64,000 nucleotides of DNA from Candidatus Omnitrophota bacterium (GTDB lineage Bacteria; Omnitrophota; Gorgyraeia; Zapsychrales; Zapsychraceae): assembly GCA_015233405.1 (NCBI GenBank), contig JADFXT010000004.1, positions 100,470-164,469 of the forward strand, written 5' to 3'. Under the pieces are notes generated by a model that saw only the letters and a program-made list of their open reading frames with translations, did not search any database and was not told the origin of the DNA. This document shows positions 18,913 to 44,308 of this stretch, in pieces. The translations under genes and the position numbers were made by a program. How positions within the stretch are numbered: position 1 is the stretch's first letter; each line of letters begins with the position of its first letter.

Positions 18913-18950
18913 GAAAAAAGCCCTGCTAAAAGCAGGGCCTTGTTTTATTT
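18913..18950 (-). terminator. intrinsic terminator (proposed native tRNA-Glu terminator displaced by the island)
   Basis: The minus strand reads GGGCTACCA-AATAAAACAAG-GCCCTGCT-TTT-AGCAGGGC-TTTTTT. This is a perfect 8-bp stem plus a U-tract, 11 nt after the distal copy of the tRNA 3' end. Confidence 0.6.
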
Positions 18951-18958
18951 GGTAGCCC
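18950..18958. repeat. 9-bp direct repeat of the tRNA-Glu 3' end (candidate distal att junction)
   Basis: TGGTAGCCC here is identical to 38733-38741 (the tRNA-Glu 3' terminus on the plus strand). It lies at the GC/AT composition switch. It is short, so the support is only moderate. Confidence 0.4.
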
Positions 18959-19087
18959 TTAGCTGTAACAAACCAAGGACGAATCTCTTTGATAAGATAA
19001 ACGTATTATAGCCAGAATATTTTTTATATCAAGTAAATCTGGTTTTCAGAGATTGGATTCCTCGGCGACTTTCGGAGTGGTGATCCG

Positions 19088-19226
19088 TCGTTTTTACTAT
19101 CGTAAGCGGACAAAATGGCTGAAAATGTGTCCGTTTTGTCCGGTCTTTTACGAGGACATTTTACGCAACTCTTTAACACGCAAATGGTAACAAAATGTCC
19201 ACCTCTCCTACCCCGGACATCGACGA
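19088..19226. repeat. copy B of the 140-150-bp imperfect direct repeat
   Basis: See copy A. It contains the inverted pair CGGACAAAA (19107-19115) / TTTTGTCCG (19133-19141) and further GGACA/TGTCC copies. Confidence 0.7.
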
Positions 19227-19279
19227 AAAATAGGCTTTTTTAGCTGTTTTTAGATAATCTTTTTGCTATGCCGATATTC

Positions 19280-19897
19280 TTAATTTATCTTAAAACTTTC
19301 CCACTCCTTTACCCTTTTCCTAATAGCCTCAAGACCCTTATTAGCCAGATCAAATATCAGCTTAGAATTCAATTCAGCCTTTTCCCAACATTTTCTGTCA
19401 TTTATGTCCCCATATTGAAAATGTATAGAATGTAAGAGTGTTTGTTTCTCAAGTTCTTTTAGGATGAGATAAATTTCTTCTGGATAAAAAGGTTTAGCAT
19501 GTTCAACGGCATCATAAAATTTCTTTCCTATTTCGTATAATCTTTGTACACGAGTCTCTTTAATCTTCTCCTCTCGTACGCTTTGCACATCAACTATAGG
19601 CATAAGCAACTGCGCATAATCTCGCAACTCAACCAAATGTTTTGATAAAGTTAGAAGAATTTCGAACTCCTTCTCATAACGTCTTTGATGGATATATAAT
19701 TGGGATTGCAGTGATCCTTTCACAAACTCTACATCCTTAGTAATTTGACGAATATCTTCTTTTGTAGCAAGATGCTCCCCTTTCTTGCTAAAGTAGGCGC
19801 CTAAGAATGCGGCAAAACCCGTAACAACACAGAAACCTAAATATTGTAACCATTGCATAGCATTAACTTGTTGGAATTCTCGAGCTTCGGAAATCAT
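19280..19897 (-). CDS. hypothetical membrane-anchored helical protein
   Basis: 205 aa with one N-terminal TM helix (LGFCVVTGFAAFLGAYF) and then a charged helical region. It is the last gene of a four-gene co-directional cluster. Confidence 0.45.
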   Translation of the reverse strand: MISEAREFQQVNAMQWLQYLGFCVVTGFAAFLGAYFSKKGEHLATKEDIRQITKDVEFVKGSLQSQLYIHQRRYEKEFEILLTLSKHLVELRDYAQLLMPIVDVQSVREEKIKETRVQRLYEIGKKFYDAVEHAKPFYPEEIYLILKELEKQTLLHSIHFQYGDINDRKCWEKAELNSKLIFDLANKGLEAIRKRVKEWESFKIN

Positions 19898-19914
19898 ATC
19901 TCTCCTCCATCTGG

Positions 19915-20538
19915 TTATTTTTCCTTTTCTGGGGGCCGCATTAATATCTGATCACCATTTTGGACTTCTTTTAGGCAATCTTCTTTATAGGCCTTATATG
20001 CCACTTCCGCGAGGATTTCAATAACCTTATCCATTCTTTCAGCCATATCATCAAACATTAGCTGAACATAATGCTTAGGCGCTCTCATGGTGCAATTATA
20101 CTGAATGCTGTCATCCTTTCTTGGTTCTTCTGTCTTCGGCAGATCTTGTTTTTTCTTTCGGCCCTTAGGAGGAGAATCTAATTTACAAGTCATAGAATGA
20201 AGAACTGTAACTTCAATTTCTTCACCCGTTAGACTTCCTAAATAATTCTGGAATTCCTGCCGGCTGTGCTTTGAGCAATAGAACTTCTTACCTGAAACCG
20301 CCAGTTCCCCTATAAAAAGTTTATCTCCCTCGTCTTGAGCAACCCAGAGGAAACCTTTTAGACCGTTTTCTAATGTCACTTCTTGCTTCTGACCAGGCTT
20401 AGGTTTAGGCGTGAATCTTGGAGCCACCTCTTTATCTTTGGTAATGCAGACTGGGCATTTGGCCTTGATCTCGACGGGATTATCAAATGGTTCTTGCTCT
20501 CCTAGGATCATCTTGCAATGAGTACAAATTATTTTCAT
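19915..20538 (-). CDS. hypothetical zinc-ribbon protein
   Basis: 207 aa. The N-terminus has CTHC-x20-CPVC (a four-Cys ribbon) and there is a basic K/R-rich linker. No family recognised. Confidence 0.45.
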   Translation of the reverse strand: MKIICTHCKMILGEQEPFDNPVEIKAKCPVCITKDKEVAPRFTPKPKPGQKQEVTLENGLKGFLWVAQDEGDKLFIGELAVSGKKFYCSKHSRQEFQNYLGSLTGEEIEVTVLHSMTCKLDSPPKGRKKKQDLPKTEEPRKDDSIQYNCTMRAPKHYVQLMFDDMAERMDKVIEILAEVAYKAYKEDCLKEVQNGDQILMRPPEKEK

Positions 20539-20582
20539 ATAAGAATTTTCAATTTAGCATAACAATCAATATTATTACGGAA

Positions 20583-21479
20583 TCATTCGAAATTAAGATA
20601 TACATAGTTTTTATTACGGCTTACAATTCTTTCTCCCTCATAGTAAAGATCTCCTTTCAATTTACTATCAAATTCTTCGACATAAGTCGCCGACTCAGTC
20701 TTTAATAAAACCTTCTTAAACACTTCACTTTTCATTCGTTCCCCGTCTGAAATGTTTCTTTGACCTGCTTTGATGGTGGCTCTTATATAATTAAATGTAA
20801 AATTAGCCAAGGCATCAACAATACTCATTACTGGTTCTTGTTGGGCTGAATCAATTCTGAAATCACTTACATAAAATCTATCCCCATAATTCTTCTGAAG
20901 ATGAAAATTAATAAAATCAATTAAAGTTTTTTGATTGGGAATAGTGATTCTCCTCGTAAACTTCCACATATGCCCGCTGTTAGCTAATTTAATAGTTAAA
21001 TTAATTTTAGGATAATTGGGGATTTCTGCAACTTTGCGCAAAACCTCCATCACTGGGAAAATCCCCTGTTGAAATATTTGCTTCAACGTATTATCTAATC
21101 TGCCAAAACTTGAAACCCGACAGCATTTCTCAAAAGCCCTCCTATGCCCTTCTCCAATATTTTGGAATGTTTGTTTCTCAGCAAAAAGAATACAACTGAA
21201 TTTATATTTCGTTCTTTTCAACACTTCGTAGAAAATAGTAAATGCTTTTTCATAATCCAATCTTGCCTGGTTATATTTTCCTCGCATGCTTCTTGCGTGT
21301 AGAAAGCTCACCCCATTCTTGTTAAGCTTATTTTGTAAGATCAGCTCGATATCTTTATTTATTAATATACAAGAAAAACAAAGCAAATTTTCTGAGACGC
21401 TCCCTCCATCATCTATCAAGAGAACATTTTCCTGTCTAGGAAGCCACAATTTAGTTTCCTTATGATCTAAATACATCAT
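20583..21479 (-). CDS. hypothetical protein, DUF3800-like motif pattern
   Basis: 298 aa. LLIDDGGS (compare DESG), FLHARSM (compare the HA motif) and SIVDALANF (compare QxxD) appear in the DUF3800 order. This is from memory only. Confidence 0.4.
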   Translation of the reverse strand: MMYLDHKETKLWLPRQENVLLIDDGGSVSENLLCFSCILINKDIELILQNKLNKNGVSFLHARSMRGKYNQARLDYEKAFTIFYEVLKRTKYKFSCILFAEKQTFQNIGEGHRRAFEKCCRVSSFGRLDNTLKQIFQQGIFPVMEVLRKVAEIPNYPKINLTIKLANSGHMWKFTRRITIPNQKTLIDFINFHLQKNYGDRFYVSDFRIDSAQQEPVMSIVDALANFTFNYIRATIKAGQRNISDGERMKSEVFKKVLLKTESATYVEEFDSKLKGDLYYEGERIVSRNKNYVYLNFE

Positions 21480-21528
21480 GACATAAGTCCAATATTTTTA
21501 TGCAGTTTTCCTTGTCTCTACCCTGTTC

Positions 21529-22533
21529 TCAAACTCGTATCCGCTTTAACTTTGAATTAAGAATCAGAAACGTTGGAGAAAAAAGTTCAATAATTTTTCC
21601 ACTTTTTAAGCTATACGCGTGGCCTTTTTTGATATCTCGCCAAATGGGGCCTAAATCCCCTATTTTTACAATGTAATAGAAGCCAAACATGTTAGTTAAT
21701 GCTATTTTGCTTATGATATAATTACCTTTATTTTCTATTGTAAAAATATGGCCTTCCAGCGAATACTGTCTATCGGTTTCGTCTGCTAAAATATGACCTT
21801 TTTCGATATTTACTATCTTGGACTTTGGCATAACACCTGTTCGAACAAAATTTCTTATGGTGTCAAATTTTGAATCCAAAGCCTGACCGGCTCCATGAAC
21901 TTTTGCAAAATAATTAAATGCTATTTTCGCAATGGCTCTACAAATTATTAAATCGATTCCACCTCTAACCTCAACTTCCAGCTTGCCATCTTCTTTTATT
22001 GCGGTAATCGATAGATGATTATTCTTAGTCTCATCAATTTTCTTGCCTAATTTCTTGAGACGTTGAACGGCTTTTTTATATTCTTTGCTGTTGTAAGCAA
22101 ATAAATCGTATTTTCCTTTTATGTTTTTTATTTCTTCATCGCTCATATCTTCTATTAAAATTGATTTTTTCTTGCCGAAAATGTCACATATTAAAATCTG
22201 TGGGGGTAAATATAAACTATCGGTTTGTAAGAAGTCGGCGAATAAAATCACTCCCCGGAATTCTCCAAATCGGTCTTCATCCGGAATATTTATTCTTATT
22301 CGATTTTGTCTTATAGGTTTTTTGGATCGTGATCCGATCTTTTGAAGCCGCCAAATCCCTTCTATGCTATTGCCAGCTAATTGTCGGTCGATAGTTGCGC
22401 CCAATTCGACATTGCAATTCCTACAGACACAATCTAGCACCCAATTATCCGGGCAGCCGAAGGCTTTCGGAAAAACATGTTCCTCGGATGAATTATCTTT
22501 GATTATTTCTTCTTTGCAATAAAGACATTTCAT
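21529..22533 (-). CDS. HNH endonuclease domain protein with a large uncharacterised C-terminal domain
   Basis: The N-terminus has CLYC-x12-EHVFPKAFG-x12-CVCRNCN, a beta-beta-alpha-Me/HNH with a CxxC...CxxC zinc site. About 270 aa of unknown domain follow. Confidence 0.65.
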   Translation of the reverse strand: MKCLYCKEEIIKDNSSEEHVFPKAFGCPDNWVLDCVCRNCNVELGATIDRQLAGNSIEGIWRLQKIGSRSKKPIRQNRIRINIPDEDRFGEFRGVILFADFLQTDSLYLPPQILICDIFGKKKSILIEDMSDEEIKNIKGKYDLFAYNSKEYKKAVQRLKKLGKKIDETKNNHLSITAIKEDGKLEVEVRGGIDLIICRAIAKIAFNYFAKVHGAGQALDSKFDTIRNFVRTGVMPKSKIVNIEKGHILADETDRQYSLEGHIFTIENKGNYIISKIALTNMFGFYYIVKIGDLGPIWRDIKKGHAYSLKSGKIIELFSPTFLILNSKLKRIRV

Positions 22534-22758: not shown

Positions 22759-22787
22759 AAAAAAACGCCGCGGTTATAAACCGCGGC
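22759..22787 (-). terminator. intrinsic terminator after the terminase gene
   Basis: GCCGCGG-TTTATAA-CCGCGGC followed by TTTTTTT on the minus strand, 23 nt after the TerL stop. Confidence 0.65.
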
Positions 22788-22809
22788 ATTTTAGTAAACA
22801 CTATCCTTA

Positions 22810-24501
22810 TCACATCCTGTGGTCATTATACCACCCATAAGGGACAAGGCCGTCAGGTGTAGGATACTGTGGTACAGGTGAAATGGGCGGATCACCCGGC
22901 TCAGGAGGATAATGTGGACCGCCTGAAATCCAGAATGAAACTTGGTTAATCGGCAAGCTAAACACCTCCACAAGCATATGGACAGCGTCGGGGCCATCAT
23001 CGTATTTTCCTTTTGGAAAATATCTGAACTGATCCAAGAGCGTTTGATCAAGCTTATTGAAAATGATCGTGCCATTTTTTATCAGCGGATGTAATGACTG
23101 AATCCGCTCTCTTTTATTCTGAGTGTTCTTAATCGGAACAACTTCAGTTTGATACAGGCTTTCTTGTTTTATTCGTTTTTCCAAATCCTGAACCATGATA
23201 CTCTGGAAATAGTTCGCCTCAACGCCAAACTTTTTCACTTTATATCGCTTGCAGTACGCGATAATATCATTCACCGTATCATTCGGCGTCCGGCGCTTAA
23301 TATCGGCTTCAATCAAATATATCAAGCCATCCCGACGATCGCGCGCTCCAAGAATAATAGCTGAATAGTCTCCTTTATTGGTATATTCTCCAGAAGCCGG
23401 ATCGCATGAGCCCATGATATCGGCATAATTGCCCATCCACTGCAACAATTCTGCCGTAGAACGGTACATATTATTATGCGTTCTAAATTCCACGGGATTA
23501 TAGAGACTCCACTCAGAACTGACCGGCTCATTTTGTTTCTCGGAATCGAAACTTCCTTCAAGCTCCGACTCACGCATGACCATGAGATCATAATAATTCT
23601 CCTTTTCTTCCCATAAAACCTTTGTTCCTTCAAGCATCGCATCTTTATTATCAAGAAAAAAAGCAAGAGCAGCATTCTTTCCTGTTTTTCCCTTATAAGG
23701 CTCCCTATTATTGAAGATTAGTTTCCATTGCTGCCAGAGATCCTTTCTCTCTGCCCATTCAATAACGGATTTATATTTCCGCTTTTCCCAGCCGGGCATG
23801 GCGTCTTCATCAATGAGTTTCGCCAGAAGCGAATCATAATGCTGGATGGTCCCTACCACAGCGATAGTGGTCTTCACGGTACCCGCCTTAAGAACGGCTT
23901 TGGTAAACCAATCGAAGAGCTTTGCTCTTGATTCCTCTGACTGGGTATTTTCATCGTTTTCGATATCATCAACGATAATTAAATCCGGCCGCAAGGCTTT
24001 ATTGCGACGTCCACGAATCTTTTGACCGGCGCCGAGCGCAGTTACCTTAACTCCATTACGAGTTACGATCTCATTTCTTGCCCAGCGATCAGGTCTCGGC
24101 TTCTGCCCTATTTCGCAGACCTCAGGAAAACTTTTAATCAACCTTTCATTTGTTTCAAGCTCGTTCTTAATATGCGAAAGCATTGTATCTGCTTGATCGC
24201 TAGTATCCGATAAGAGAAGGATAAAACCTGCCTTCTTATAACAGATATTCCACAACGGGAATGCGAAACTAAAAAGAACACTCTTAGCAGATCCCCTCGG
24301 CCCTGCGACCGCCAAACGCTTTCCTCCTTCTTCTATTAAGGAAATATTATCGAGCATCGCGTAGATATCATCATGGAATGCACACGACTTTGTTTTTAAA
24401 TAATGAGATAAATATAACGCTGTAAACGCTTTGAACGACTTTTTTCCAGCTTCTCGGCGGAGACGCTCCTCTTCATTAAACATGTTGTTATTGTCCATCA
24501 C
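22810..24501 (-). CDS. terL: phage terminase large subunit
   Basis: 563 aa. It has Walker A AGPRGSAKS, Walker B LIIVDDIEND, and a C-terminal RNase-H-like nuclease pattern GSCDPASGEYTNKGDYSAIILG...YLIEADI. Confidence 0.85.
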   Translation of the reverse strand: MMDNNNMFNEEERLRREAGKKSFKAFTALYLSHYLKTKSCAFHDDIYAMLDNISLIEEGGKRLAVAGPRGSAKSVLFSFAFPLWNICYKKAGFILLLSDTSDQADTMLSHIKNELETNERLIKSFPEVCEIGQKPRPDRWARNEIVTRNGVKVTALGAGQKIRGRRNKALRPDLIIVDDIENDENTQSEESRAKLFDWFTKAVLKAGTVKTTIAVVGTIQHYDSLLAKLIDEDAMPGWEKRKYKSVIEWAERKDLWQQWKLIFNNREPYKGKTGKNAALAFFLDNKDAMLEGTKVLWEEKENYYDLMVMRESELEGSFDSEKQNEPVSSEWSLYNPVEFRTHNNMYRSTAELLQWMGNYADIMGSCDPASGEYTNKGDYSAIILGARDRRDGLIYLIEADIKRRTPNDTVNDIIAYCKRYKVKKFGVEANYFQSIMVQDLEKRIKQESLYQTEVVPIKNTQNKRERIQSLHPLIKNGTIIFNKLDQTLLDQFRYFPKGKYDDGPDAVHMLVEVFSLPINQVSFWISGGPHYPPEPGDPPISPVPQYPTPDGLVPYGWYNDHRM

Positions 24502-25171
24502 AAACCTCCTTGTTGTTTTGTAGTTCGTCCTTTTTCTTAGTCAGCTCAGAGATCTCTTCTACTATTTCAGCTTTCTCTATTTTTTGCTGAAGCAGTTTAA
24601 TATTCTCTTCTGTTTTCTCATCTAAAGTTCCTGTTTCCTTAGAAACTCTTTCTATTTCTTGAAGATCTTTTCTTAACTGTGAATATGCTTTTGTATCACC
24701 TCCTTCATAATGATGGTAGATATCGCCTACCAACTCTTTTGGCTTTAAAGGCATAAGGCCCAAACTTTGGAGTCGTTCGATTAACTCAACAAGAACACGC
24801 CAAGCGGAAACTCTGGCTTGGATTTTATTCGCATCCGAAACATTCTTCCCATTGCTAAGCCGAACTAGATAGTCGTGATGCGCTAATCCTTTTTTGAAAA
24901 TATCGCCTGACATCTGCTTTGCAAATTCGATACCGGGAGTTAAGGAATTCCTCTCACGTATTTCTCGAACATCGCGCTGAATGGTTTTTTCGCTGCGTTT
25001 AAGAATTTGTGCAACTTGAACTTCGGAGTAACCTTCCCCAACAAAAACCTCAACGCAGGATAATCGCACCTCTTTTGTTAAGGTCCGAGGATCAACAACG
25101 CCCGCCCTAACATCTTCGATAACTGAAATAATGGGGGTTTCTTGATTAAATGATTCTTTATCATCAACCAT
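24488..25171 (-). CDS. HTH protein in the terminase small subunit position
   Basis: 227 aa. It has the HTH YSEVQVAQILKRSEKTIQRDVREIRE and a C-terminal coiled coil. It overlaps the TerL start by 14 nt. Confidence 0.5.
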   Translation of the reverse strand: MVDDKESFNQETPIISVIEDVRAGVVDPRTLTKEVRLSCVEVFVGEGYSEVQVAQILKRSEKTIQRDVREIRERNSLTPGIEFAKQMSGDIFKKGLAHHDYLVRLSNGKNVSDANKIQARVSAWRVLVELIERLQSLGLMPLKPKELVGDIYHHYEGGDTKAYSQLRKDLQEIERVSKETGTLDEKTEENIKLLQQKIEKAEIVEEISELTKKKDELQNNKEVCDGQ

Positions 25172-26432: not shown

Positions 26433-26559
26433 ACGTACCTCCTTTTTATTGGTTACTAATGAATTAAAAAACACCGATAGGAAATAAAAAATCCCTATTA
26501 AAACTAAAAAATATTTTTTAAACATTGTGGCTTCTCCTCATTTTGATTTAGGCTATAAA

Positions 26560-27256: not shown

Positions 27257-27332
27257 TGCTACTCGCTTTTTAAACTTTATTCTTGCAGCTTAATCGTAAC
27301 TATTCTTTAATTTTATCTTGGGCATCCATCAT

Positions 27333-28703: not shown

Positions 28704-28704
28704 A

Positions 28705-30609: not shown

Positions 30610-30632
30610 TTTATCCCCCAGGCCGTAACATA

Positions 30633-30803
30633 TTAATTGTTTTTCTCAATTATACTTTTTATCGTCTCTTTAAAACGAGGGCTTTGCTGATCAAGACATT
30701 CACGTTCATATCGAAATATATCTTCGAGCTTAGACTTTAATCCAGCGTCAAGATTAAGCTTGTTTGTTTCCTCTTTTATAATTTTATTAATTTCTTTTAT
30801 CAT
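30633..30803 (-). CDS. small hypothetical ORF (56 aa) between the PLD-helicase and the ATPase
   Basis: My own translation gives MIKEINKIIKEETNKLNLDAGLKSKLEDIFRYERECLDQQSPRFKETIKSIIEKNN. It has a strong Shine-Dalgarno (GGAGGGGTGAGGT-ATG). It falls below the 60-aa cutoff of the ORF track. Confidence 0.45.
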   Translation of the reverse strand: MIKEINKIIKEETNKLNLDAGLKSKLEDIFRYERECLDQQSPRFKETIKSIIEKNN

Positions 30804-30816
30804 ACCTCACCCCTCC

Positions 30817-32889
30817 TTATTCAAAATATACTTTAAATTGATTCATAATCTTGCTCAAGACTAATAAAACATAATCTTTATTTGTAGCAGAATCGAAGAA
30901 CTCTTTAGAACGGCGCACTTCTCTTGATATTATCTTTTGTTCAATACGAAGGATATCAGGATCTAACGCTGCGCCTTCTGCGGGAATCACAAAGAAATCA
31001 TAAATTATTGCTTTGTCTTTATGATGGTGCTTCCTTAAAACTCGACCTCTTCTTTGAATATATTGAGCAGGATTAGTACTGCTAGCCAAAATGATCGCGG
31101 TTTTTATAGACGGGATATCCACCCCCTCATCAAGACATCTTATCGCAATTAATGCCTTATAAAAGCCTTTTTCAAAAGCATCTAATATTTTCGATCTTTC
31201 ATCTTGGGTCTCTTCAAAAGTAATTTTACGTTGTAAGATATTGTGCTTATTTAATAACTGCGAAACCCATTTAATTTGCTCAGGGCTGCAATAAATAAGT
31301 AAATGATCTATTAAATTCGATTTCTTAAGATCTAAGATTATCTGCTCAAATCTTTTTTTCTTGTTTTCATTATTTACAATCAAATTAGCTCTATCAATAA
31401 GAAGTTTTCTTAAATAATTATCCCAATCGCCACCAGATCCATTCGTAGAGCATTTTGATACTTTTGAAATCTTCCTAGCCAACACAATATAATCTTCTAT
31501 TTCGTCACCCGTCATCTGCACCACCTCTGGATAATAATCATACGGGACCAAAAAATCCGGAATAGCTTCTTTAAGGCTAAAACGAAAAACGGTTCCCCCC
31601 ATATAATTTCTTAATTTATCGGAACCATCTTCATCAAACCATCTATCCGGCGTAGCGCTTAATCCAAGCCTAAATTTAAAGAAATCCCGCATACAATTCT
31701 GATTGCTGGATGAACCTAAATGATGAACCTCATCCGCTACGATCATTAAATTCTCATGATTATTAAGATACTTCTCTACTAAATCAATAAATTTGTTCTT
31801 AGAAAAGGTATCATATATAGTAAAGACTACAACCTTATCGGTGAACCTCAACAAAAAATTTTGAGCATACTCATTTAGGTCTTTTTCCCACATTCTTACC
31901 CCTGAGTGAGCCTCCATCATAAGAAATTGATCTTTAAAATGAGCAATAAATTCTTTCTTCCATTGGCTTACAAGATGAATATACGGGACCACTATTATAA
32001 GAAAAAGGCGTCCTTCTTTCTTAATTAACCGCTCTATTATCTTTAAAGATGTAAACGTTTTTCCTGTGCCTGTCGCCATTTCTAACATACCCTTACATTC
32101 GTGTGACTCCCAGGCATCAATTGCTTTCAGCTGATAAGGACGGACATCTCTTTTAGCGACTCCATCCAGATATTTCTTTCCTAAAACGCCCTCTTCAATA
32201 TTCGACGATAAATTTTCAAAATCAGCATAGTTCTTCGGCGCGATTCTAATTATTTTATTAGCAAATGCTTCAGAAATTGGATAAATTCTTGTTCTTTGAG
32301 TCTTCCCCTCCCACATTTTATTAAATTGTTCCAAATCATGCCTTAAATGCTCTTCCTCTACAAACCCTTTCCAGCTTCTAAACACATGAAACGTTTCATC
32401 ATTATAAAGCCATCCATTCGCCGTCTCATTATCAGAACCAGTAAACGACAATATATTCCCCTCTAAATCTTCTAATATTCCAATTTTTTGATGAATGATT
32501 CCCTGCGGCACAACCGCAATTCTAATGCTAAGCTTCTTTGTTTTTAACATCCACGACAGCATACTGACATGATCTTTCATCAGCTGTTCTTCCATATTTT
32601 CAATCTCTTGCAAAACCTTTTCTTCTTGTTCATATAACACCTCCTCAATCGCACGCTTGTCCTCTTCAGATAGAATAACGCTTGTAATTAAAAACATTTG
32701 CCCATCATTCTTAATAAAATTAGCTATCCCTTTGGCAGCTACAGCAAGCGAATTAGAAGAAAAAAATCCTGTAATCCTTTTGTAAATTTTTGCGGCTGAT
32801 AAGGTGGGAATATAAAACTCATTTAAAATATCATCTTGGTCTGACCAATAGGAAGGCTTTAAATTATAATCTGTTAAATTTTTATTCAT
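30817..32889 (-). CDS. PLD-family (HKD) nuclease fused to an SF2 ResIII-type helicase
   Basis: 690 aa. It has a single HKD motif IIHQKIGILEDLEGNILSFTGSDNET and the helicase motifs I MATGTGKT, II ADEVHH, III LSATP and VI QRRGRVLR. Confidence 0.8.
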   Translation of the reverse strand: MNKNLTDYNLKPSYWSDQDDILNEFYIPTLSAAKIYKRITGFFSSNSLAVAAKGIANFIKNDGQMFLITSVILSEEDKRAIEEVLYEQEEKVLQEIENMEEQLMKDHVSMLSWMLKTKKLSIRIAVVPQGIIHQKIGILEDLEGNILSFTGSDNETANGWLYNDETFHVFRSWKGFVEEEHLRHDLEQFNKMWEGKTQRTRIYPISEAFANKIIRIAPKNYADFENLSSNIEEGVLGKKYLDGVAKRDVRPYQLKAIDAWESHECKGMLEMATGTGKTFTSLKIIERLIKKEGRLFLIIVVPYIHLVSQWKKEFIAHFKDQFLMMEAHSGVRMWEKDLNEYAQNFLLRFTDKVVVFTIYDTFSKNKFIDLVEKYLNNHENLMIVADEVHHLGSSSNQNCMRDFFKFRLGLSATPDRWFDEDGSDKLRNYMGGTVFRFSLKEAIPDFLVPYDYYPEVVQMTGDEIEDYIVLARKISKVSKCSTNGSGGDWDNYLRKLLIDRANLIVNNENKKKRFEQIILDLKKSNLIDHLLIYCSPEQIKWVSQLLNKHNILQRKITFEETQDERSKILDAFEKGFYKALIAIRCLDEGVDIPSIKTAIILASSTNPAQYIQRRGRVLRKHHHKDKAIIYDFFVIPAEGAALDPDILRIEQKIISREVRRSKEFFDSATNKDYVLLVLSKIMNQFKVYFE

Positions 32890-32935: not shown

Positions 32936-33709
32936 TTATCTTAACAAACTATCCTTAAAATCATTAAGATTTTCTTTTGGCGAGATCTTGCGGAAGACAA
33001 AGAGGTGTTCATGCATGATGAGAAGAAAATCTTTTTGCTGAGCATTCCAATATCTTGTGGTGGCGCAATTATGTTGAGTTTTAATGATGTCTTCTTTAAG
33101 AATAAAACCCGCCCTTAAGAACCTCTGCATTACATTAAAAGCCAACGGAACAAAATGCCTTCGTCGTCTTGTGTCGCCCATAAGAATAGCGCAATACTTG
33201 CCTGGCTTTAAAACTCTTAAACACTCTTTGGCAACCGAATCAATTTGATCGCAAAATTTGGTCAGGCTATTAATGGCCGACAAATCTCCTTCGATTTCCT
33301 TCTCGCTATATTGAATAATATTTAAGTACGGCGGATGTGTTACAACAAGATCCACTGATTCATCTTCTATTTTTTCAAGTTTTCTTGCATCCCCGATACA
33401 ACATTCTTGTTTTGACTTATTATCTGCATCAAAATTAAGCACTTCTTTACACAATTTTATGGCATTAGGATTAATATCTAACCCAATAGCGTTTCGATTT
33501 AATAATTTTGCTTCGACGAGTGTTGTGCCGCCACCCACCATAGGATCTAAAATTAGTTCGCCTTCTTGGGAATATCTAAGGATAAGATTTCTGGGAATTT
33601 GCGGCGCCCAATTGCCACGGTAGGTTGGCTTATGCGTTGCCCAATTGCCACGTTCCGGGAAGGACCAGACAGTCGTTGTTTCTAGTTTAAAATTTATTTC
33701 TTTACTCAT
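32936..33709 (-). CDS. DNA N6-adenine/N4-cytosine methyltransferase (second methylase)
   Basis: 257 aa. It has the SAM motif ILDPMVGGGTT, followed by the catalytic DLVVTHPPY. Its start overlaps the endonuclease stop by 8 nt. Confidence 0.8.
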   Translation of the reverse strand: MSKEINFKLETTTVWSFPERGNWATHKPTYRGNWAPQIPRNLILRYSQEGELILDPMVGGGTTLVEAKLLNRNAIGLDINPNAIKLCKEVLNFDADNKSKQECCIGDARKLEKIEDESVDLVVTHPPYLNIIQYSEKEIEGDLSAINSLTKFCDQIDSVAKECLRVLKPGKYCAILMGDTRRRRHFVPLAFNVMQRFLRAGFILKEDIIKTQHNCATTRYWNAQQKDFLLIMHEHLFVFRKISPKENLNDFKDSLLR

Positions 33710-34631
33710 TTCCTAAAACTATCCTTTCCAATATGCATTTTTCAACCATATCAAGGCTTAATAAATAATCATTCTGTTCGAATGTTTCTCTAAGCGGTCT
33801 TGAAGTAGTTTTCCATCCTTCTCCATCCGTTATCCAGATGAATTTATGCTTGCCTTTTAAAACATTTGCTAAATCTCGATATTCTCCCGCTGTGGCTTTT
33901 AACTTTGAGCCTCCTCCGCTATAGAAATTCACCTCAAGAATAAAAATCTCTTTTTTATTACTTATAACAAAATCATATCTTCTGGACGATTTATCTACGG
34001 GCACATTTACCTTAAATTTCTCTTTAATCTTATTCGCTGATGCTTCTTTCAAATACTCTAACCCATTTCTCTTGCATATATCTTGAATAAAGCTCTCAAC
34101 AATATCCTCCATTATAGTTCCGCCTCGATTCTTACGACCATTGCTATCCAGACCTGCCTCGACTCCAATCATATAATCAACCAGGTTCTTAATTCTTTTG
34201 CCAACCAGCAGTTCTTTTAATTTTGTTTCTTTAACAAAAGTTAAACACTTATTAATATCGTCATCCGTCAGCTTGTTCAAATCAAAGTTATAGTCTTCAT
34301 AAACTAACTTTTTGTTTTTATAATCGACCAGGATTTTAAATTTCTTTGTATTTTCCCCGTCACGAACTACCAGAGCCGGAATTATCCTTACAACTTCGGG
34401 GTGCTTCTTTAACAAACCCTTAAATTCTTCATCAAAATTATCTTTTCCAACTAAATAATTAAGGATATTAAGGCCAATCTCAATCTCTTTAACATTCTCA
34501 AAAACTTTCTCCCAATTTACAAAATAAGACCATACCAGTGTTGAGGGCTTAAGGTTATTAAGTAAATACTCAAAAACAGCATCTTTGTCCTTACAGCCAA
34601 TGATTTCTTTATAACTATTAAGATATTTCAT
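33702..34631 (-). CDS. DpnII/MboI-family GATC restriction endonuclease
   Basis: I moved the start to MKYLNSY (ATG at 34631). NLVDYMIGVEAGLDSNGRKNRGG, EVNFYSGGGSKLKATA, WITDGEGW and LRETF match my recollection of R.DpnII almost block for block. Confidence 0.85.
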   Translation of the reverse strand: MKYLNSYKEIIGCKDKDAVFEYLLNNLKPSTLVWSYFVNWEKVFENVKEIEIGLNILNYLVGKDNFDEEFKGLLKKHPEVVRIIPALVVRDGENTKKFKILVDYKNKKLVYEDYNFDLNKLTDDDINKCLTFVKETKLKELLVGKRIKNLVDYMIGVEAGLDSNGRKNRGGTIMEDIVESFIQDICKRNGLEYLKEASANKIKEKFKVNVPVDKSSRRYDFVISNKKEIFILEVNFYSGGGSKLKATAGEYRDLANVLKGKHKFIWITDGEGWKTTSRPLRETFEQNDYLLSLDMVEKCILERIVLGNE

Positions 34632-34648
34632 AGTCTTCCTTTCTAAAA

Positions 34649-35563
34649 TTAATAATTCATAACTAATATCTCTGTTACTTCCCCGCGCTTGTCTGCTTGG
34701 CAATTAATCATTCGATTAGCTTTGATCCTCTCAATATGATATCCACGATACAAATCATCAAAAAAATTATCCTTAGGATTAACATTTTTAGGATCTGAAT
34801 TACTTAACATAATGGATGCGCCTTTTTTATCAAGAATCCCGTAAATCTTTCTCAGGCGTTTTTGCTCACTATCATCAAAAATATCCTTAGAGTAACTTGT
34901 AAAACTTGCGGTCGATGACAGCGGCCTATAGGGCGGGTCAAAATAAACAAAAGATTCGCTGTTCGCATGTTCTAAACATAAAGCAAAATCTCCACAAATT
35001 ACCTCAGCTTTTTGCAAAAGATGATGCACAGCAAGAAGATTCTCCTCATTACAAATCGTTGGATTTTTATATCGCCCGAATGGAACATTAAACTCACCTG
35101 AAGAATTTACTCGATAGAGGCCATTAAAACATGTCTTATTAAGAAAAATCAAAAGCGCTGCACGATGAACAAAACTATTCGCAGCCTTTCTTCTTAAATA
35201 CGTATTAAATTCCTCTCGCTTCTGATAAAACATTTTCTCTCGCCCACTATCCGAACTTGATAAATATTCTAATTCGAACTGATCTAATTCTTTTAAAAGT
35301 TTCTTGATGTCTTTTTTGATAACTTGATAACAGAGGTTAACGGCTGGGTTGATTTCATACAAATATGCTTCCTCAAAATCATAATGCTCCGCAAGCCAAA
35401 AGAAAAGCGCTCCGCCGCCAAGAAATGGCTCAAAATATTTCTTAATCCACCCTTCTTTCAAAGAGTCTGGAAGATAATCAGCAATTTGATCAATCAACTG
35501 ACCTTTGCCGCCAGCCCACTTTAGAAACGGCTTAACTTGTCTTTCCGTAGTAATCATTTTCAC
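34649..35563 (-). CDS. Dam-family DNA adenine methyltransferase (GATC)
   Basis: 304 aa. It has the N-terminal PFLKWAGGKGQL, FEPFLGGGALFF and the catalytic YFDPPY. Confidence 0.9.
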   Translation of the reverse strand: MKMITTERQVKPFLKWAGGKGQLIDQIADYLPDSLKEGWIKKYFEPFLGGGALFFWLAEHYDFEEAYLYEINPAVNLCYQVIKKDIKKLLKELDQFELEYLSSSDSGREKMFYQKREEFNTYLRRKAANSFVHRAALLIFLNKTCFNGLYRVNSSGEFNVPFGRYKNPTICNEENLLAVHHLLQKAEVICGDFALCLEHANSESFVYFDPPYRPLSSTASFTSYSKDIFDDSEQKRLRKIYGILDKKGASIMLSNSDPKNVNPKDNFFDDLYRGYHIERIKANRMINCQADKRGEVTEILVMNY

Positions 35564-35564
35564 C

Positions 35565-36188
35565 TCAAAAATTAGGAATTGTGGTTACAACAACACCCTG
35601 CACTTGGAAATCATTTGTCAAAACAATCGGCCGATGCTGCTTGTTGCTTGATCTCGGCCTTAAAACATACGTCTCACCGCCGATAAGAAATTCTTTTATC
35701 ATCGCCTCATCATCAATCAACGCCACAACCGTGTCCCCGCTTTTCGCTGTCGTTTGCTGGCGGACTAAAACCAAATCGCCATCGTTGATCCCCTTCTGGT
35801 TCATGGAATCTCCCCGGGCCTGAATCAGAAAATACCGGTGCGGCGGCTTGGCTAATTTCACACTAACCGGGATTTGAGCCTGAATATTTTCTTCGGCAAG
35901 CATGGGCGCCCCACAAGCTACCCTGCCCACCAAAGGCACATCCACGGTTTGAGCGCGAGTTGTATCATCACCTAAACTTTTAATAAATTGCAAGTTGCCG
36001 TCCTCTTTGCGCCGTAAAACACCTTTCTTCATTAACTTATCAACAATTAAAGACGCTGAACGTGGAGATCGATAACCAAGAGAAGACATGAGTTCGCGCA
36101 TGGAAGGAATACGACCGACGTGCATGAGGGAGTTGCGAATTTCGCGGATGGCTTCTAATTCTTTATTAGTTACTGCTGCGGCTTGCAT
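35565..36188 (-). CDS. LexA-type repressor (wHTH + S24 autopeptidase)
   Basis: I moved the start to MQAAAVTNKELEAI (ATG at 36188). It has the LexA-like wHTH IPSMRELMSSLGYRSPRSASLIVDKLMKKGVL, a cleavage-site region RVACGAPMLAEE, the S24 Ser in GDSM and a Lys in MIKEF. Its stop abuts the Dam start. Confidence 0.8.
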   Translation of the reverse strand: MQAAAVTNKELEAIREIRNSLMHVGRIPSMRELMSSLGYRSPRSASLIVDKLMKKGVLRRKEDGNLQFIKSLGDDTTRAQTVDVPLVGRVACGAPMLAEENIQAQIPVSVKLAKPPHRYFLIQARGDSMNQKGINDGDLVLVRQQTTAKSGDTVVALIDDEAMIKEFLIGGETYVLRPRSSNKQHRPIVLTNDFQVQGVVVTTIPNF

Positions 36189-36205
36189 GTATACACTATT
36201 ATACA
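36188..36205. promoter_or_regulatory. candidate operator palindrome overlapping the repressor -10 element
   Basis: TGTATA-N6-TATACA is a perfect inverted repeat. On the minus strand a consensus TATAAT (36203-36198) lies 9 nt upstream of the repressor ATG. Confidence 0.45.
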
Positions 36206-36315
36206 GGGAAGATAATTTGTCAATAATATTTTTTCGTAAAAAAATTTCTGCTCTATATAACTTGCTATCTCTCAAATTGTATGGCTTATATGACACTAAC
36301 GAAAGGAGAGAACCC

Positions 36316-36789
36316 GTGGATGAAACCATTGCCGCTCAGATAGAAACGCTAAAAAATATGCCACTCTTAGATCTTCAAAACAAATATCAAGAGCTGTTCG
36401 GCACAAAAGAAACGCCTTGTGATAATAAGGTATACATTTTAAGAATGATCGCTTACAAGCTCCAAGAAATGAACTGCGGGGGCTTGTCTGATGAGGCCAA
36501 ATCTAAACTTGAGATCCTTACAACGAGATATGACCCTATTAATAATAAAGCGCTTCGCCCCCAGGTTACATCCGTCGGGAAAGAAGTTAAGGCGCTGCCG
36601 TTCTTGAGAGACAAACGCCTTCCGATTCCGGGGACTGTTATTACAAAGAAGTATAAAGGGCAGCTGATCAGGGTGAAGGTCCTTGAAAAAGGATTTGAAC
36701 ACGACAATGTTTATTATAAAAGCCTGTCTGCGCTTGCAACCAAAATCACCGGGGATCATTGGAATGGCTATAACTTTTTTTGTATCTAG
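36316..36789 (+). CDS. DUF2924 family protein (recombinase accessory)
   Basis: I moved the start to the GTG at 36316 (AAGGAGAG Shine-Dalgarno). LRMIAYKLQEMNCGGLS...LPIPGTVITKKYKGQLIRVKVLEKGFEHDNVYYKSLSALATKITGDHWNGYNFF follows the DUF2924 pattern usually found upstream of large serine recombinases. Confidence 0.7.
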   Translation: MDETIAAQIETLKNMPLLDLQNKYQELFGTKETPCDNKVYILRMIAYKLQEMNCGGLSDEAKSKLEILTTRYDPINNKALRPQVTSVGKEVKALPFLRDKRLPIPGTVITKKYKGQLIRVKVLEKGFEHDNVYYKSLSALATKITGDHWNGYNFFCI

Positions 36790-36797
36790 AAAAATAT

Positions 36798-38423
36798 ATG
36801 GAAAATAACGAGACCAAAGAGAAAAAACAGCTTAATTGCGCGATTTATACTCGCGTCTCCACCACTGAAGGCTTGGAGCAACAATTTACCTCCCTTGATA
36901 ACCAACGCGAAGCAGCTGAAAGTTACATTCAAAGCCAAAAATCAGAAGGCTGGACGGCATTACCGGAGCATTACGACGATGCAGGCTTTACCGGAGCCAA
37001 TACGGACAGACCTGCTTTACAGAAACTTGTTGAAGATATCAAAGCGCACAAAATTAACTGCGTTGTTGTCTATAAAGTTGATCGTCTGTCGCGCTCGCTT
37101 CTGGATTTCAGCAAATTATTGGAGTTCTTCGATCAAAACAACATTGCCTTTGTCTCTGTCACTCAGCATTTTAATACCAATACCTCGATGGGCAGGCTAA
37201 CCTTAAACATCCTCCTTTCGTTTGCCCAGTTCGAGCGGGAAATCATCAGCGAACGAACCAAAGACAAGATGGCCGCTTCCAAGAAGAAAGGGAAATGGGT
37301 CGGCGGATGCGTTCCTCTAGGTTATGACATCGATAGAGAAAACCGCAAGCTGGTCATTAATCCGGAGGAAGCAAAAATTGTGCGTGAAATATTTGATGCC
37401 TACCTCAAAGAAAGAACGCTCATGGCTGCCGTAGGGGTTATCAATGACAGAGGCTACGTAACGAAAAAATACCAATCGCTGGGAGGCAAAAAACGCGGCG
37501 GGATCAAATTTCAAGTAACATCAATTAATCAGATAGTCAAAAACGTATGCTACACCGGCAAGGTAAAGCACGATGGCATCCTATATCCTGGGGAACAAGA
37601 ACGAATTATATCCGACGAGGTTTTCACAAAAGCCCAGGAGCTGATAGCGGCAAATAGGCGCGTGTTTTTTAATAAGCCGAAGCACAACAAAATAAGTTTA
37701 CTTGGGCATATCCTACGCTGCAAAGATTGCGATGCTGTGATGAATATTTTTTATTCTGAAAAAAGAAACGGAAAATGCCGATACTTCCATTATGTATGCC
37801 TGAGCGCACACAAACGCGGCTACAAAACATGCCCTACCAAACTTGTGAACGCCAACCTTATGGATAATAAAGCCATGGCTTGCTTAAGATCTATTACGGA
37901 TGACCCGAGGATAAATAGCGAAAAGTGGGACGTTCTTGGGCTTGATAAAAAAATATTAATTATTAGATCAATTATTAAACAAGTCCGCTACAGTGGAGCC
38001 AATGAAATACTTGAAATCCAGCTACAAGACGATACGGTACATCAATTTAAGGTTTTAAAACAGGACTTGAAACAGGTCTCCCCTCTGTCAAAAGAACGCT
38101 TAATAAAGACCGAGCCGCAATTAAGGCAAAACCTGCTCCTTGCCCACCAGATCCAGAAACTTCTCTTCGAAGGGAAATCGAACAGTTTAAAACAAATAGC
38201 CGGATGGCTCAATATAAGCCCGCAAAGAATCAACCAACTAAGGAACCTTGTCCTCCTCTGCCCCAAAATTCAAGAAAACATCTTTCTGGGAGAAAGCTCC
38301 ATAATCTCCCAAATCCCCGAGTACAAGCTGCGAAAAATAACGGATACGATGGGTTGGCAGGAACAGCAGAATCTTTGGCAAAAACTGCTAAATACTGCCA
38401 GCGAACAATCCAAACATCTCTAG
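36798..38423 (+). CDS. large serine recombinase (integrase)
   Basis: The catalytic domain has AIYTRVSTTEGL...SLDNQ...VVVYKVDRLSRS. A recombinase domain and a zinc ribbon (CKDCDAVM...CLSAHKRGYKTC) follow, then a C-terminal coiled-coil region. Confidence 0.9.
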   Translation: MENNETKEKKQLNCAIYTRVSTTEGLEQQFTSLDNQREAAESYIQSQKSEGWTALPEHYDDAGFTGANTDRPALQKLVEDIKAHKINCVVVYKVDRLSRSLLDFSKLLEFFDQNNIAFVSVTQHFNTNTSMGRLTLNILLSFAQFEREIISERTKDKMAASKKKGKWVGGCVPLGYDIDRENRKLVINPEEAKIVREIFDAYLKERTLMAAVGVINDRGYVTKKYQSLGGKKRGGIKFQVTSINQIVKNVCYTGKVKHDGILYPGEQERIISDEVFTKAQELIAANRRVFFNKPKHNKISLLGHILRCKDCDAVMNIFYSEKRNGKCRYFHYVCLSAHKRGYKTCPTKLVNANLMDNKAMACLRSITDDPRINSEKWDVLGLDKKILIIRSIIKQVRYSGANEILEIQLQDDTVHQFKVLKQDLKQVSPLSKERLIKTEPQLRQNLLLAHQIQKLLFEGKSNSLKQIAGWLNISPQRINQLRNLVLLCPKIQENIFLGESSIISQIPEYKLRKITDTMGWQEQQNLWQKLLNTASEQSKHL

Positions 38424-38659
38424 TTTATTCTTCCCACATTAAGCCGATTTCCTAGTTTATACCTATATACTGATATTTATAATTCGACTAAATAGCTAAA
38501 ATTGGCATAAACTACCCGCTATAAACTACGAGATATTTCGCCATATTTTAAAGATATTCTTGATTAATATTTTACAATTTACCGCTGGAGATCTGAACGG
38601 AAGGTTTTACGAATATGCGCGAAAAAAATATTGCCCTAAGCCTTTGAAACAGCGCCAGA

Positions 38660-38695
38660 TAAAAAAATCCCTGATCGATTTTGTCAATCAGGGAT
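38660..38695 (-). terminator. intrinsic terminator downstream of tRNA-Glu (island side)
   Basis: ATCCCTGAT-N11-ATCAGGGAT is followed by TTTTTTT on the minus strand, about 38 nt after the tRNA 3' end. Confidence 0.6.
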
Positions 38696-38732
38696 TATAA
38701 ACTCTCTATCCTTCAAACGAGAGAGAACTTAC

Positions 38733-38810
38733 TGGTAGCCCCAACCGGATTTGAACCGGTGTTTTCTGCCTGAGAAGCAGACGTCCTGGACCAGGCTAGA
38801 CGATGGGGCC
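38733..38810 (-). tRNA. tRNA-Glu (anticodon CUC), CCA encoded
   Basis: The minus strand reads GGCCCCATCGTCTAGCCTGGTCCAGGACGTCTGCTTCTCAGGCAGAAAACACCGGTTCAAATCCGGTTGGGGCTACCA. The acceptor is 7 bp, the anticodon arm is TCTGC/TTCTCAG/GCAGA, and the T-arm is ACCGG/TTCAAAT/CCGGT. Confidence 0.9.

Positions 38811-44226: not shown

Positions 44227-44308
<82 letters not shown>

What the first reader, a model, noticed from the sequence alone, without database searches (positions are those of the whole stretch)
18913..38810. Island boundaries: 9-bp repeat of the tRNA-Glu 3' end, with the apparent native tRNA terminator stranded 19.8 kb away
TGGTAGCCC (plus strand) occurs at 38733-38741, which is the tRNA-Glu 3' terminus GGGCTACCA on the minus strand. 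It occurs again at 18950-18958 in the same orientation.
Immediately outside the distal copy, the minus strand reads GGGCTACCA, then 11 nt, then GCCCTGCT-TTT-AGCAGGGC, then TTTTTT. That is exactly what a tRNA gene's own terminator would look like.
The composition also changes here. The Fic side is host-like and the 19.3-35.5 kb interior is visibly AT-rich. The serine recombinase/DUF2924 pair sits at the tRNA-proximal end.
A 9-mer alone is weak evidence. About 0.5 chance hits are expected across the whole window, but only about 0.004 within this one intergenic region. The terminator context is what makes it persuasive.
Basis: partly seen in the sequence, partly recalled or inferred. Interest (0 to 1): 0.6.

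Follow-up and report, generated by a model that had tools for sequence, protein, structure and literature searches.

The report
Serine-recombinase island at tRNA-Glu end
A 19.8-kb mobile island carrying anti-phage defence genes and a phage DNA-packaging module sits at the 3' end of a tRNA-Glu gene in an Omnitrophota genome; the proposed borders hold up, and it is a fairly ordinary island apart from its recombinase type and its capsid-less packaging module.

Summary
TGGTAGCCC occurs only at 18950-18958 and 38733-38741. The second copy is the 3' end of tRNA-Glu(CTC). About 0.001 chance hits are expected in the 456-nt intergenic region that holds the distal copy. A hairpin plus T-run lies 11 nt outside that copy, and GC falls from 0.45-0.47 in the flanks to 0.376 inside.

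Twenty-five Omnitrophota relatives keep the same flanking gene blocks 0.3-5 kb apart, against 24.8 kb here. In one relative the Fic module lies 2.4 kb from tRNA-Glu. Four other islands with homologous recombinase/DUF2924 genes abut the same tRNA-Glu CCA end.

Three refinements:
- The tRNA is not left without a terminator. Every island supplies its own, supported by covariation.
- Fic may be older accreted DNA rather than core host sequence.
- No empty site was found, and two relatives show no comparable end repeat, so the exact distal junction rests on in-window statistics.

The island belongs to a family with a fixed backbone: recombinase, DUF2924, repressor, ParB-methylase, TerS-like, TerL. 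None has portal or capsid genes. Cargo here is a DpnII restriction-modification system and Pbe-like defence genes. A satellite-like lifestyle is plausible but unproven.

The parts
38733..38810 (-). tRNA-Glu(CTC), the integration target. Its last 9 nt (38733-38741) form the proximal repeat copy.
18950..18958 (-). Distal copy of GGGCTACCA, proposed attR core.
18913..18949 (-). An 11-nt A-rich spacer, an 8-bp GC hairpin (18920-18938) and a T-run. This is the candidate original tRNA-Glu terminator (B' side). It looks bidirectional and sits upstream of the Fic promoter.
   Evidence: matching arrangement in L018, L022 and L027
38659..38732 (-). Island-supplied P' arm: GTAA, a CTCTCT/AGAGAG hairpin (38702-38725), a terminator hairpin (38666-38696) and a T-run.
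   Evidence: covariation in 12 of 19 pairs across 6 islands
38421..38528 (.). Cluster of four TAGTTTAT/ATAAACTA boxes (two in each orientation) between the LSR stop codon and the terminator. The cluster is conserved in the family and is a candidate accessory protein-binding site.
36780..38423 (+). Large serine recombinase (LSR; NCBI protein MBF0522231.1).
36088..36789 (+). DUF2924 (RAMA-like DNA-binding) protein, co-oriented with and directly upstream of the LSR. The true start is probably near 36320.
   Evidence: paired with the LSR in 75 of 80 viral contigs; PMC11342252
35565..36329 (-). LexA-type repressor (S24 peptidase + LexA DNA-binding domain), divergent from DUF2924-LSR.
   Evidence: 143 bits against a cut-off of 111
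32936..35563 (-). Cargo: DpnII-type restriction-modification system (Dam-class MTase 34649-35563, DpnII endonuclease 33702-34703, N6_N4 MTase 32936-33709).
26642..32889 (-). Cargo: Pbe-like defence cluster. PbeA helicase/PLD 30817-32889, PbeC/DndD-like ATPase 28705-30609, dnd_assoc_4-like protein 28260-28703, and unknown proteins at 27333-28178 and 26642-27256.
22760..26525 (-). Conserved packaging backbone: ParB_N-MTase 25164-26525, TerS-like 24488-25171, TerL 22810-24501, and a conserved terminator 22760-22787.
19280..22533 (-). Distal variable cargo: HNH_5 protein 21529-22533, and unknown proteins at 20583-21479, 19915-20538 and 19280-19897 (the last matches phrog_26391).
18959..19279 (-). 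Non-coding distal end of the island (P side). It holds a promoter-like site (19032-19005) pointing across the 9-mer, and a 140-nt element (19088-19226) with six GGACA/TGTCC motifs.

Best explanation
Window 18959-38732 (19,774 nt) is an integrative element inserted at the 3' CCA end of tRNA-Glu(CTC) by its own large serine recombinase (LSR).

Proposed mechanism:
- Crossover took place inside the shared GGGCTACCA, most likely in or next to CCA.
- attL is the host tRNA joined to the island P' arm.
- attR is the island P arm, then GGGCTACCA, then the host sequence that originally followed the tRNA. That sequence is an A-rich spacer, a terminator and the Fic promoter.
- The island's P' arm carries two hairpins and a T-run. 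These replace the displaced terminator and shield the convergent recombinase gene from tRNA read-through.

Family and likely regulation:
- The element belongs to an Omnitrophota family with a fixed backbone: LSR, DUF2924, a divergent repressor, ParB-methylase, a TerS-like protein, TerL and a terminator. Variable cargo sits in two slots.
- Cargo here is a DpnII restriction-modification system and Pbe-like defence genes in one slot, and four small genes in the other.
- Inferred only: cleavage of the LexA-type repressor derepresses DUF2924-LSR. DUF2924 acts as the DNA-binding directionality or accessory factor. The excised circle is packaged by its own TerS/TerL into capsids of a helper phage.

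Shown: insertion relative to other genomes, the proximal junction, the repeat, the terminators and the gene content. Inferred: the exact crossover position, current mobility, the DUF2924 role and packaging.
For: - Repeat and terminator.
- Composition step.
- Intact LSR with all three domains and the invariant catalytic serine column.
- Synteny: the flanking blocks are 0.3-5 kb apart in 25 relatives and 24.8 kb apart here.
- L027 has Fic 2.4 kb from tRNA-Glu, with a tRNA-Glu 3' fragment directly before the Fic promoter.
- Fic-module homology in four other contexts stops at 18904-18919, just before the terminator.
- Four further islands (L014, L031/L115, L033/L034; LSR 54-85% identical) have the LSR stop codon about 300 nt from the tRNA-Glu CCA end. 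Their P' modules are homologous from the first base after CCA.
- Two contigs carry an island identical over 11,947 nt and first differ in the tRNA T-stem.
- The island-side terminator shows compensatory changes in 12 of 19 pairs.
- The backbone ParB-MTase/TerS-like/TerL is full-length in the window, L115 and L120, and ParB-MTase is also present in L119.
- TerL is a genuine phage terminase: phrog_38 at 3e-110, and about 38% identity to Mu-like phage TerL.
- The LexA equivalog score is above the curated cut-off.
- The DUF2924-LSR pair occurs in 75 of 80 viral contigs.
Against: - No island-free genome of the same species was found. The predicted attB junction gave 0 hits in metagenome contigs.
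- The closest relative island (L115, LSR 85% identical) has neither a second GGGCTACCA nor a P-arm-like sequence at its apparent far end.
- The minimal element L120 is not at a tRNA and shows no end repeat of 7 nt or more.
- The reconstructed attP shows no convincing dyad symmetry (9 of 27 positions, my own inspection).
- The two contigs sharing an identical island also share the left flank, so they do not prove transfer between hosts.
- A roughly 150-nt repeat at 75% identity (17551-17699 and 19088-19226) brackets Fic, the terminator and the 9-mer, and is unexplained.
- No replication gene was recognised.
- No direct evidence for excision or packaging exists.
Confidence: 0.78

Rival explanations
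1. The island is real, but the 9-mer is a coincidence or a relic. The recombinase needs only a 2-bp core, so the true distal junction lies elsewhere in about 18920-19280, or was lost by deletion.
For: Related islands L115 and L120 show no end repeats. Serine integrases are known for short common cores that are hard to predict (PMC10654092). No attP symmetry was found.
Against: The 9-mer is anchored exactly on the tRNA terminus, in the correct orientation, with about 0.001 hits expected in this region. It lies within 40 nt of where Fic-module homology ends and at the GC step. L119 shows an analogous 6-nt repeat of the tRNA-His terminus beside a P' module.
Confidence: 0.12
2. The terminator, the 9-mer and Fic (and perhaps the AAA and NaCa genes) are not core host DNA. 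They are the remains of an earlier element at the same tRNA hot spot. On this reading the stranded terminator came from that older element, and the variable region extends left to about 14.0 kb.
For: NaCa, the AAA protein and Fic have no counterpart in the 25 syntenic relatives. The Fic module occurs in different contexts, after tRNA-Arg in L026 and after a 49-nt tRNA-Glu fragment in L027. Fic homologues at about 70% identity occur in other phyla. L027, L015 and L019 carry arrays of degenerate tRNA-Glu 3' fragments. A decayed copy of the island-end 150-nt element lies left of Fic. The accretion model for tRNA islands is published (bioRxiv 10.1101/2020.12.28.424599).
Against: GC of 14-19 kb is host-like at 0.44-0.48. 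No second tRNA fragment or integrase remnant was found left of Fic. This rival does not change the borders of the present island.
Confidence: 0.35
3. The element is a decayed prophage that lost its portal-to-lysis genes. It is no longer mobile, and the terminase genes are leftovers.
For: No portal, capsid, tail or lysis gene is found by Pfam, PHROGs or NCBIfam. The LSR/DUF2924/ParB-MTase combination is common in full-length viral contigs.
Against: Three divergent members (the window, L115, L120; TerL 39-43% identical) all keep full-length ParB-MTase, TerS-like and TerL genes, and all end the backbone at the same conserved terminator just after TerL. One of them is a clean element of about 6.5 kb. 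Independent decay would not stop at the same point each time.
Confidence: 0.25

Closest known systems
Genomic islands, tycheposons and PICIs integrated at tRNA 3' ends by tyrosine integrases
   Same: The insertion is at the 3' end of a tRNA gene. A partial tRNA repeat marks the far border. The integrase gene sits next to the tRNA. The locus is a hot spot with degenerate tRNA fragments and accreted DNA in relatives. Cargo consists of defence genes.
   Different: The integrase is a large serine recombinase, not a tyrosine recombinase. In the tycheposon survey only 27 of 937 elements carried one (bioRxiv 10.1101/2020.12.28.424599). The repeat is 9 nt rather than the roughly 40 nt typical of those elements. 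The tRNA body is not rebuilt from island DNA. The island instead supplies a new terminator.
Serine-integrase prophage integration (phiC31/Bxb1 type; closest named relative is the Wolbachia phage WO recombinase with its DUF2924 neighbour)
   Same: Same enzyme family and domain set. Identity to the WO integrase is 36% over 98% of the protein. A DUF2924 gene lies directly upstream of the recombinase, as reported for WO (PMC10299305). The common core is short.
   Different: The target is the CCA end of a tRNA gene rather than a protein-coding gene or intergenic site (the latter is from my own knowledge of the characterised enzymes). The element has no virion genes. No directionality factor has been identified.
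Phage satellites (PICI, cf-PICI, PICMI)
   Same: A compact integrative element with an integrase, a divergent repressor, packaging genes and defence cargo. Size is 6.5-20 kb.
   Different: It encodes both a TerS-like protein and TerL but no capsid, portal or recognisable replication module. It uses a serine recombinase. Helper dependence is untested.

Membership tests
Large serine recombinase (serine integrase) | N-terminal resolvase catalytic domain with the nucleophilic serine | tested here: met
   PF00239 at 4.5e-41. The serine in the CAIYTRVS motif is invariant in 23 aligned homologues, including the window protein.
Large serine recombinase (serine integrase) | C-terminal recombinase domain plus zinc-ribbon domain | tested here: met
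   PF07508 at 3e-14 and PF13408 at 1.6e-5, the latter just above its cut-off.
Large serine recombinase (serine integrase) | Recombination between short attP and attB sites with a central 2-bp crossover | not testable with these tools
   Only the 9-nt shared core is visible. No symmetry or empty site was found.
tRNA-targeted integrative genomic island | One border at the 3' end of a tRNA gene, with the integrase gene beside it | tested here: met
   The LSR stop codon lies 310 nt from the tRNA-Glu 3' end. The same arrangement is seen in 4 related islands.
tRNA-targeted integrative genomic island | Direct repeat of the tRNA 3' end at the other border | tested here: met
   An exact 9-nt repeat, with about 0.001 expected by chance in that region. 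It is not seen in relatives L115 and L120.
tRNA-targeted integrative genomic island | Absent from the same locus in related genomes | tested here: met
   None of the 25 syntenic loci carries this island, and only L014 carries a related one. In L027 Fic is 2.4 kb from the tRNA. No same-species empty site was found.
Prophage | Virion and lysis genes (portal, capsid, tail, lysin) | tested here: not met
   No such family was found by Pfam, PHROGs or NCBIfam. Only TerL, a TerS-like protein and an HNH protein are present.
Phage satellite (PICI-like) | Integrase plus repressor plus a gene that redirects helper packaging | tested here: met
   LSR, a LexA-type repressor, and TerS-like/TerL genes.
Phage satellite (PICI-like) | Own replication module (primase or replication initiator) | tested here: not met
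   No primase or replication family was detected in the island or in the minimal L120 element.
Phage satellite (PICI-like) | Induction and packaging dependent on a helper phage | not testable with these tools
   No close relative is present in IMG/VR contigs.
Pbe (Dnd-associated) defence system | PbeA helicase/PLD together with PbeC ATPase and the small partners | tested here: inconclusive
   PbeA at 7e-220 and PbeC at 7.5e-92. The dnd_assoc_4 match is below its cut-off. PbeB and the dnd modification genes were not identified.
Intrinsic terminator (at both 18913-18949 and 38659-38696) | GC-rich hairpin followed by a T-run on the transcribed strand | tested here: met
   The island-side hairpin shows covariation.

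The most novel reading that the evidence does not exclude
The island is one member of an undescribed family that is widespread in Omnitrophota. Members are 6.5-20 kb and share the backbone LSR, DUF2924, repressor, ParB-methylase, TerS and TerL, with no capsid, portal or replication genes. On this reading they would be terminase-encoding phage satellites that dock on the CCA end of tRNA genes (Glu, His), bring their own replacement terminator for the tRNA, and shuttle defence systems.
Probability: 0.3. Interest if true: 0.65.

Novelty: new member of a known kind. Interest (0 to 1): 0.4.

Why it matters
The result gives a well-delimited mobile element for Omnitrophota, a phylum with almost no experimentally known mobile elements. 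It yields concrete attP and attB candidates for a serine integrase that targets a tRNA end, which tyrosine integrases usually do. It also points to a recurring capsid-less element carrying both terminase subunits and defence cargo, which could be a new satellite type. As a single island border call, it is routine.

Tried and rejected
- Exact-protein look-ups of the FIST and Fic products, and of P0001, found nothing. The source contig (NCBI MAG, 168,999 nt, proteins MBF0522212.1 to MBF0522231.1) could not be fetched.
- The predicted empty-site pattern gave 0 hits in metagenome contigs. The second and last metagenome scan, using the L032 DUF8426 protein, also found nothing.
- IMG/VR holds no close relatives. 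LSR matches there reach at most 52% identity.
- Short repeats of tRNA ends in those viral contigs are at chance level. About two 9-mers are expected per locus.
- I searched the far end of the closest relative island (L115) for a second GGGCTACCA or a sequence like the window P arm. None was found.
- I looked for end repeats in the minimal element L120. None was found.
- I looked for dyad symmetry in the reconstructed attP and attB by hand. It was not above chance.
- I tested whether the island continues left of Fic into phage structural genes. The genes there are housekeeping genes.
- Rfam gave nothing significant for the boundary regions.
- RNA folding of the 150-nt repeat gave z of about -3 on the plus strand, but the two copies fold into different structures.
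- I rejected L031 versus L032 as proof of transfer between hosts, because the left flank is also identical.


Full report
**Observation.** ARAGORN and Rfam call tRNA-Glu(CTC) at 38733-38810 on the minus strand. TGGTAGCCC occurs exactly twice in 64 kb, at 18950-18958 and 38733-38741, both in the same orientation. The whole-window expectation is 0.16, and no shuffle gave two hits. Within the 456-nt intergenic region 18824-19279 the expectation for a 9-mer anchored on the CCA end is 0.0007-0.001. Outside the distal copy the minus strand reads GGGCTACCA, AATAAAACAAG, GCCCTGCT-TTT-AGCAGGGC, TTTTTT. The hairpin has 8 pairs and looks bidirectional. GC is 0.376 for 18959-38732, against 0.445 and 0.466 in the flanks, with the step at about 18.8-19.0 kb. 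All elements of the observation are real.

**Gene content of the island.** Reading from the tRNA leftward:
- large serine recombinase (LSR), 36780-38423
- DUF2924, 36088-36789
- a divergent LexA-type repressor, 35565-36329, which passes the NCBIfam LexA equivalog cut-off
- a DpnII-type restriction-modification system with two methylases, 32936-35563
- a Pbe-like cluster: PbeA at 7e-220, PbeC at 7.5e-92, a weak dnd_assoc_4 match, and two unknown proteins, 26642-32889
- ParB_N-methylase, a TerS-like protein and TerL, 22810-26525. TerL matches phrog_38 at 3e-110 and is about 38% identical to TerL of Mu-like phages.
- four small genes, 19280-22533, one with an HNH_5 domain

No portal, capsid, tail, lysis or replication family was detected. 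The genes left of Fic are housekeeping genes (GlmS, DsbA-like, D-Ala carboxypeptidase, TrmB, TadA, RsmE, a TPR-lipase, a Na/Ca exchanger), so the element does not continue there.

**Host and synteny.** The host is a Candidatus Omnitrophota bacterium. In 25 genomes of other Omnitrophota species the right flank (tRNA-Glu(CTC), FIST, HisKA, RR-GGDEF ... tRNA-Leu) is conserved. The left block GlmS-DsbA-Dac-TrmB-DUF3192, sometimes with TadA, RsmE or the TPR-lipase, is also conserved. It lies 0.3-5 kb from the tRNA in those genomes. In the window the distance from the TPR-lipase to the tRNA is 24.8 kb. This is strong comparative evidence for an insertion of about 20 kb.

The closest informative relative is L027, whose Fic is 81% identical. 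It has the FIST block, an intact tRNA-Glu followed at once by a terminator, several degenerate tRNA-Glu 3' fragments, and a 2-kb remnant. A 49-nt tRNA-Glu 3' half ending in GGGCTACCA then sits directly upstream of the Fic promoter and gene. Fic is therefore 2.4 kb from the tRNA there, against 19.9 kb here.

Homology of the Fic module in four other contexts stops at window 18904-18919, immediately before the terminator. Deleting 18959-38732 plus one repeat copy puts the tRNA end 127 nt before the Fic start codon. The corresponding distance is 120 nt after tRNA-Arg in L026 and 157 nt in L027.

**Proximal junction.** The LSR has many homologues in Omnitrophota. Every closer relative whose context I could read has the LSR stop codon about 300 nt from the CCA end of tRNA-Glu(CTC), in the same convergent orientation. 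These are L014 (54% identical), L031/L032/L115 (85%) and L033/L034 (75%).

The sequence that follows CCA is homologous among these islands. In order it contains:
- G(T/A)A
- a CTCTCT...AGAGAG hairpin
- a second GC hairpin with a T-run
- GTTTCAAAGG..TTAGGGC
- four TAGTTTAT/ATAAACTA boxes, which in the window lie at 38421-38528

The second hairpin keeps its pairing through compensatory changes in 12 of 19 pairs. Each island therefore supplies its own terminator for the tRNA.

Two contigs from different samples carry an island identical over 11,947 nt. Their first differences are a compensatory pair in the tRNA T-stem, and they diverge upstream of the tRNA. This places the island edge within the last 13 nt of the tRNA. 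Because the left flank is also identical, it does not prove transfer between hosts.

**Distal junction.** I could not find an empty site of the same species. The predicted attB pattern gave no hit, and both metagenome scans are spent.

The sister island in L115 ends between a TPR gene and a TPP-riboswitch/Thi4 host gene. That region holds no second GGGCTACCA and nothing like the window P arm. The minimal element L120 (LSR 62% identical) lies 40 nt after a transpeptidase gene, not at a tRNA, and shows no end repeat. In L119 (LSR 69% identical) the module sits at tRNA-His. There a 6-nt ACCCCA repeat of the tRNA-His terminus precedes a second P' module.

Repeats of the tRNA terminus therefore occur in the family but are not universal. 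This fits serine integrases, whose common cores are short and hard to predict (PMC10654092).

For the window, the exact junction rests on four points:
- the improbability of the 9-mer by chance
- its orientation
- its position at the composition step and at the end of Fic-module homology
- the terminator context

Three LSR-free relatives (L018, L022, L027) have tRNA-Glu followed at 8-9 nt by an A-rich spacer and a terminator, the same layout as outside the distal copy. I put about 0.8 on the junction lying in the 9-mer.

**Family and mechanism.** Full-length ParB-MTase (49-55% identical), TerS-like (37-47%) and TerL (39-43%) genes recur in L115 and L120, and ParB-MTase recurs in L119. In the window, L115 and L120 the backbone ends at a conserved terminator just after TerL, and the sequences diverge beyond it.

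L120 is a clean element of about 6.5 kb that consists only of the backbone. That several divergent members stop at the same point argues against random prophage decay. It favours a stable element type that keeps a terminase but no capsid genes, which suggests a satellite-like life cycle. This remains an inference.

DUF2924 partly matches the RAMA DNA-binding domain (PMC11342252). It precedes the recombinase in Wolbachia phage WO (PMC10299305), whose integrase is the closest named relative at 36% identity. It also precedes the LSR in 75 of 80 IMG/VR contigs carrying related LSRs. Several of those contigs lie next to tRNA-Asn, tRNA-Gln, tRNA-Met or tRNA-Pro. Its position in an operon with the LSR, divergent from the repressor, makes it a candidate accessory or directionality factor.

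- The AT-rich signal marks the cargo blocks. The backbone has near-host GC.
- NaCa, the AAA protein and Fic have no counterpart at this locus in the 25 relatives. Fic modules sit in varied contexts, twice just after tRNAs. The left side may therefore be older accreted DNA, as in the published accretion model for tRNA islands (bioRxiv 10.1101/2020.12.28.424599). 'Native' terminator should then be read as 'the terminator that followed the tRNA before this insertion'.
- A roughly 150-nt repeat at 75% identity (17551-17699 and 19088-19226) brackets Fic, the terminator and the 9-mer. It remains unexplained.

**Verdict.** The feature is a new member of a known kind, a tRNA-end genomic island. It has two unusual traits: a serine recombinase as integrase, and a capsid-less TerS/TerL backbone shared by a family. 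These traits justify moderate interest.

Noticed in passing
window 17551-17699 and 19088-19226: A direct repeat of about 150 nt at roughly 75% identity brackets the Fic gene, the terminator and the distal 9-mer. The island copy holds six GGACA/TGTCC motifs in three inverted pairs, and the left copy looks decayed. No other copy exists in the window or in loci L001-L030, and Rfam gives no hit.
   Followed up: partly
window 38811-38912 (minus strand): Seventeen to nineteen nt of the tRNA-Glu 5' end (GGCCCCATCGTCTAGCCTG) are duplicated 102 nt upstream of the tRNA and are followed by two GC hairpins. A promoter-like site (38956-38929) lies just upstream, so the duplicate would be part of the tRNA leader. 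It is unique to this genome among the loci fetched.
   Followed up: partly
window 43813-43913 versus 44197-44277: tRNA-Leu(GAG) (44227-44308) has a partial duplicate of its 3' part, about 100 nt long, 384 nt downstream. The duplicate encloses an 81-aa ORF (43950-44195). This is probably the scar of another integration event.
   Followed up: no
window 18871-18914: Three to four tandem 11-nt repeats (TTTATCGGCAA-like) lie just upstream of the Fic -10 box. They are conserved in the Fic modules of L026, L027 and L029, and are probably an operator for the HTH domain of Fic.
   Followed up: partly
window 38421-38528: Four TAGTTTAT/ATAAACTA boxes (two in each orientation) lie right after the recombinase stop codon. 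They are conserved in position in most of the related islands aligned. Seven of the eight copies in the window lie inside the island.
   Followed up: partly
window 19005-19032 (minus strand): A near-consensus promoter-like site (TTGATA-16-TATAAT) inside the island end points across the 9-mer to the terminator. In an excised circle it would read across attP into the island-side terminator.
   Followed up: no
L119 11600-12853: An LSR 69% identical to the window's sits at tRNA-His(GTG). Two tandem copies of the LSR-downstream module (about 340-390 nt each) are separated by a 6-nt repeat of the tRNA-His terminus. This indicates a shift of target tRNA within the family and tandem or remnant insertions.
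   Followed up: partly
L120 1894-8960: A minimal family member of about 6.5 kb (TerL, TerS-like, ParB-MTase, HTH repressor, DUF2924, LSR) is inserted 40 nt after a transpeptidase gene, with no tRNA nearby.
   Followed up: partly
L027 7555-9843; L015 and L019 downstream of tRNA-Glu: Several degenerate copies of the tRNA-Glu 3' end (15-49 nt) follow the intact gene in relatives. This marks the tRNA as a recurrent integration hot spot used by elements with longer att cores.
   Followed up: partly
window 26642-32889: A Pbe-like defence cluster (PbeA, PbeC, a dnd_assoc_4-like protein) has no recognisable dnd modification genes beside it. It lies next to a DpnII restriction-modification system with two methylases.
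   Followed up: no
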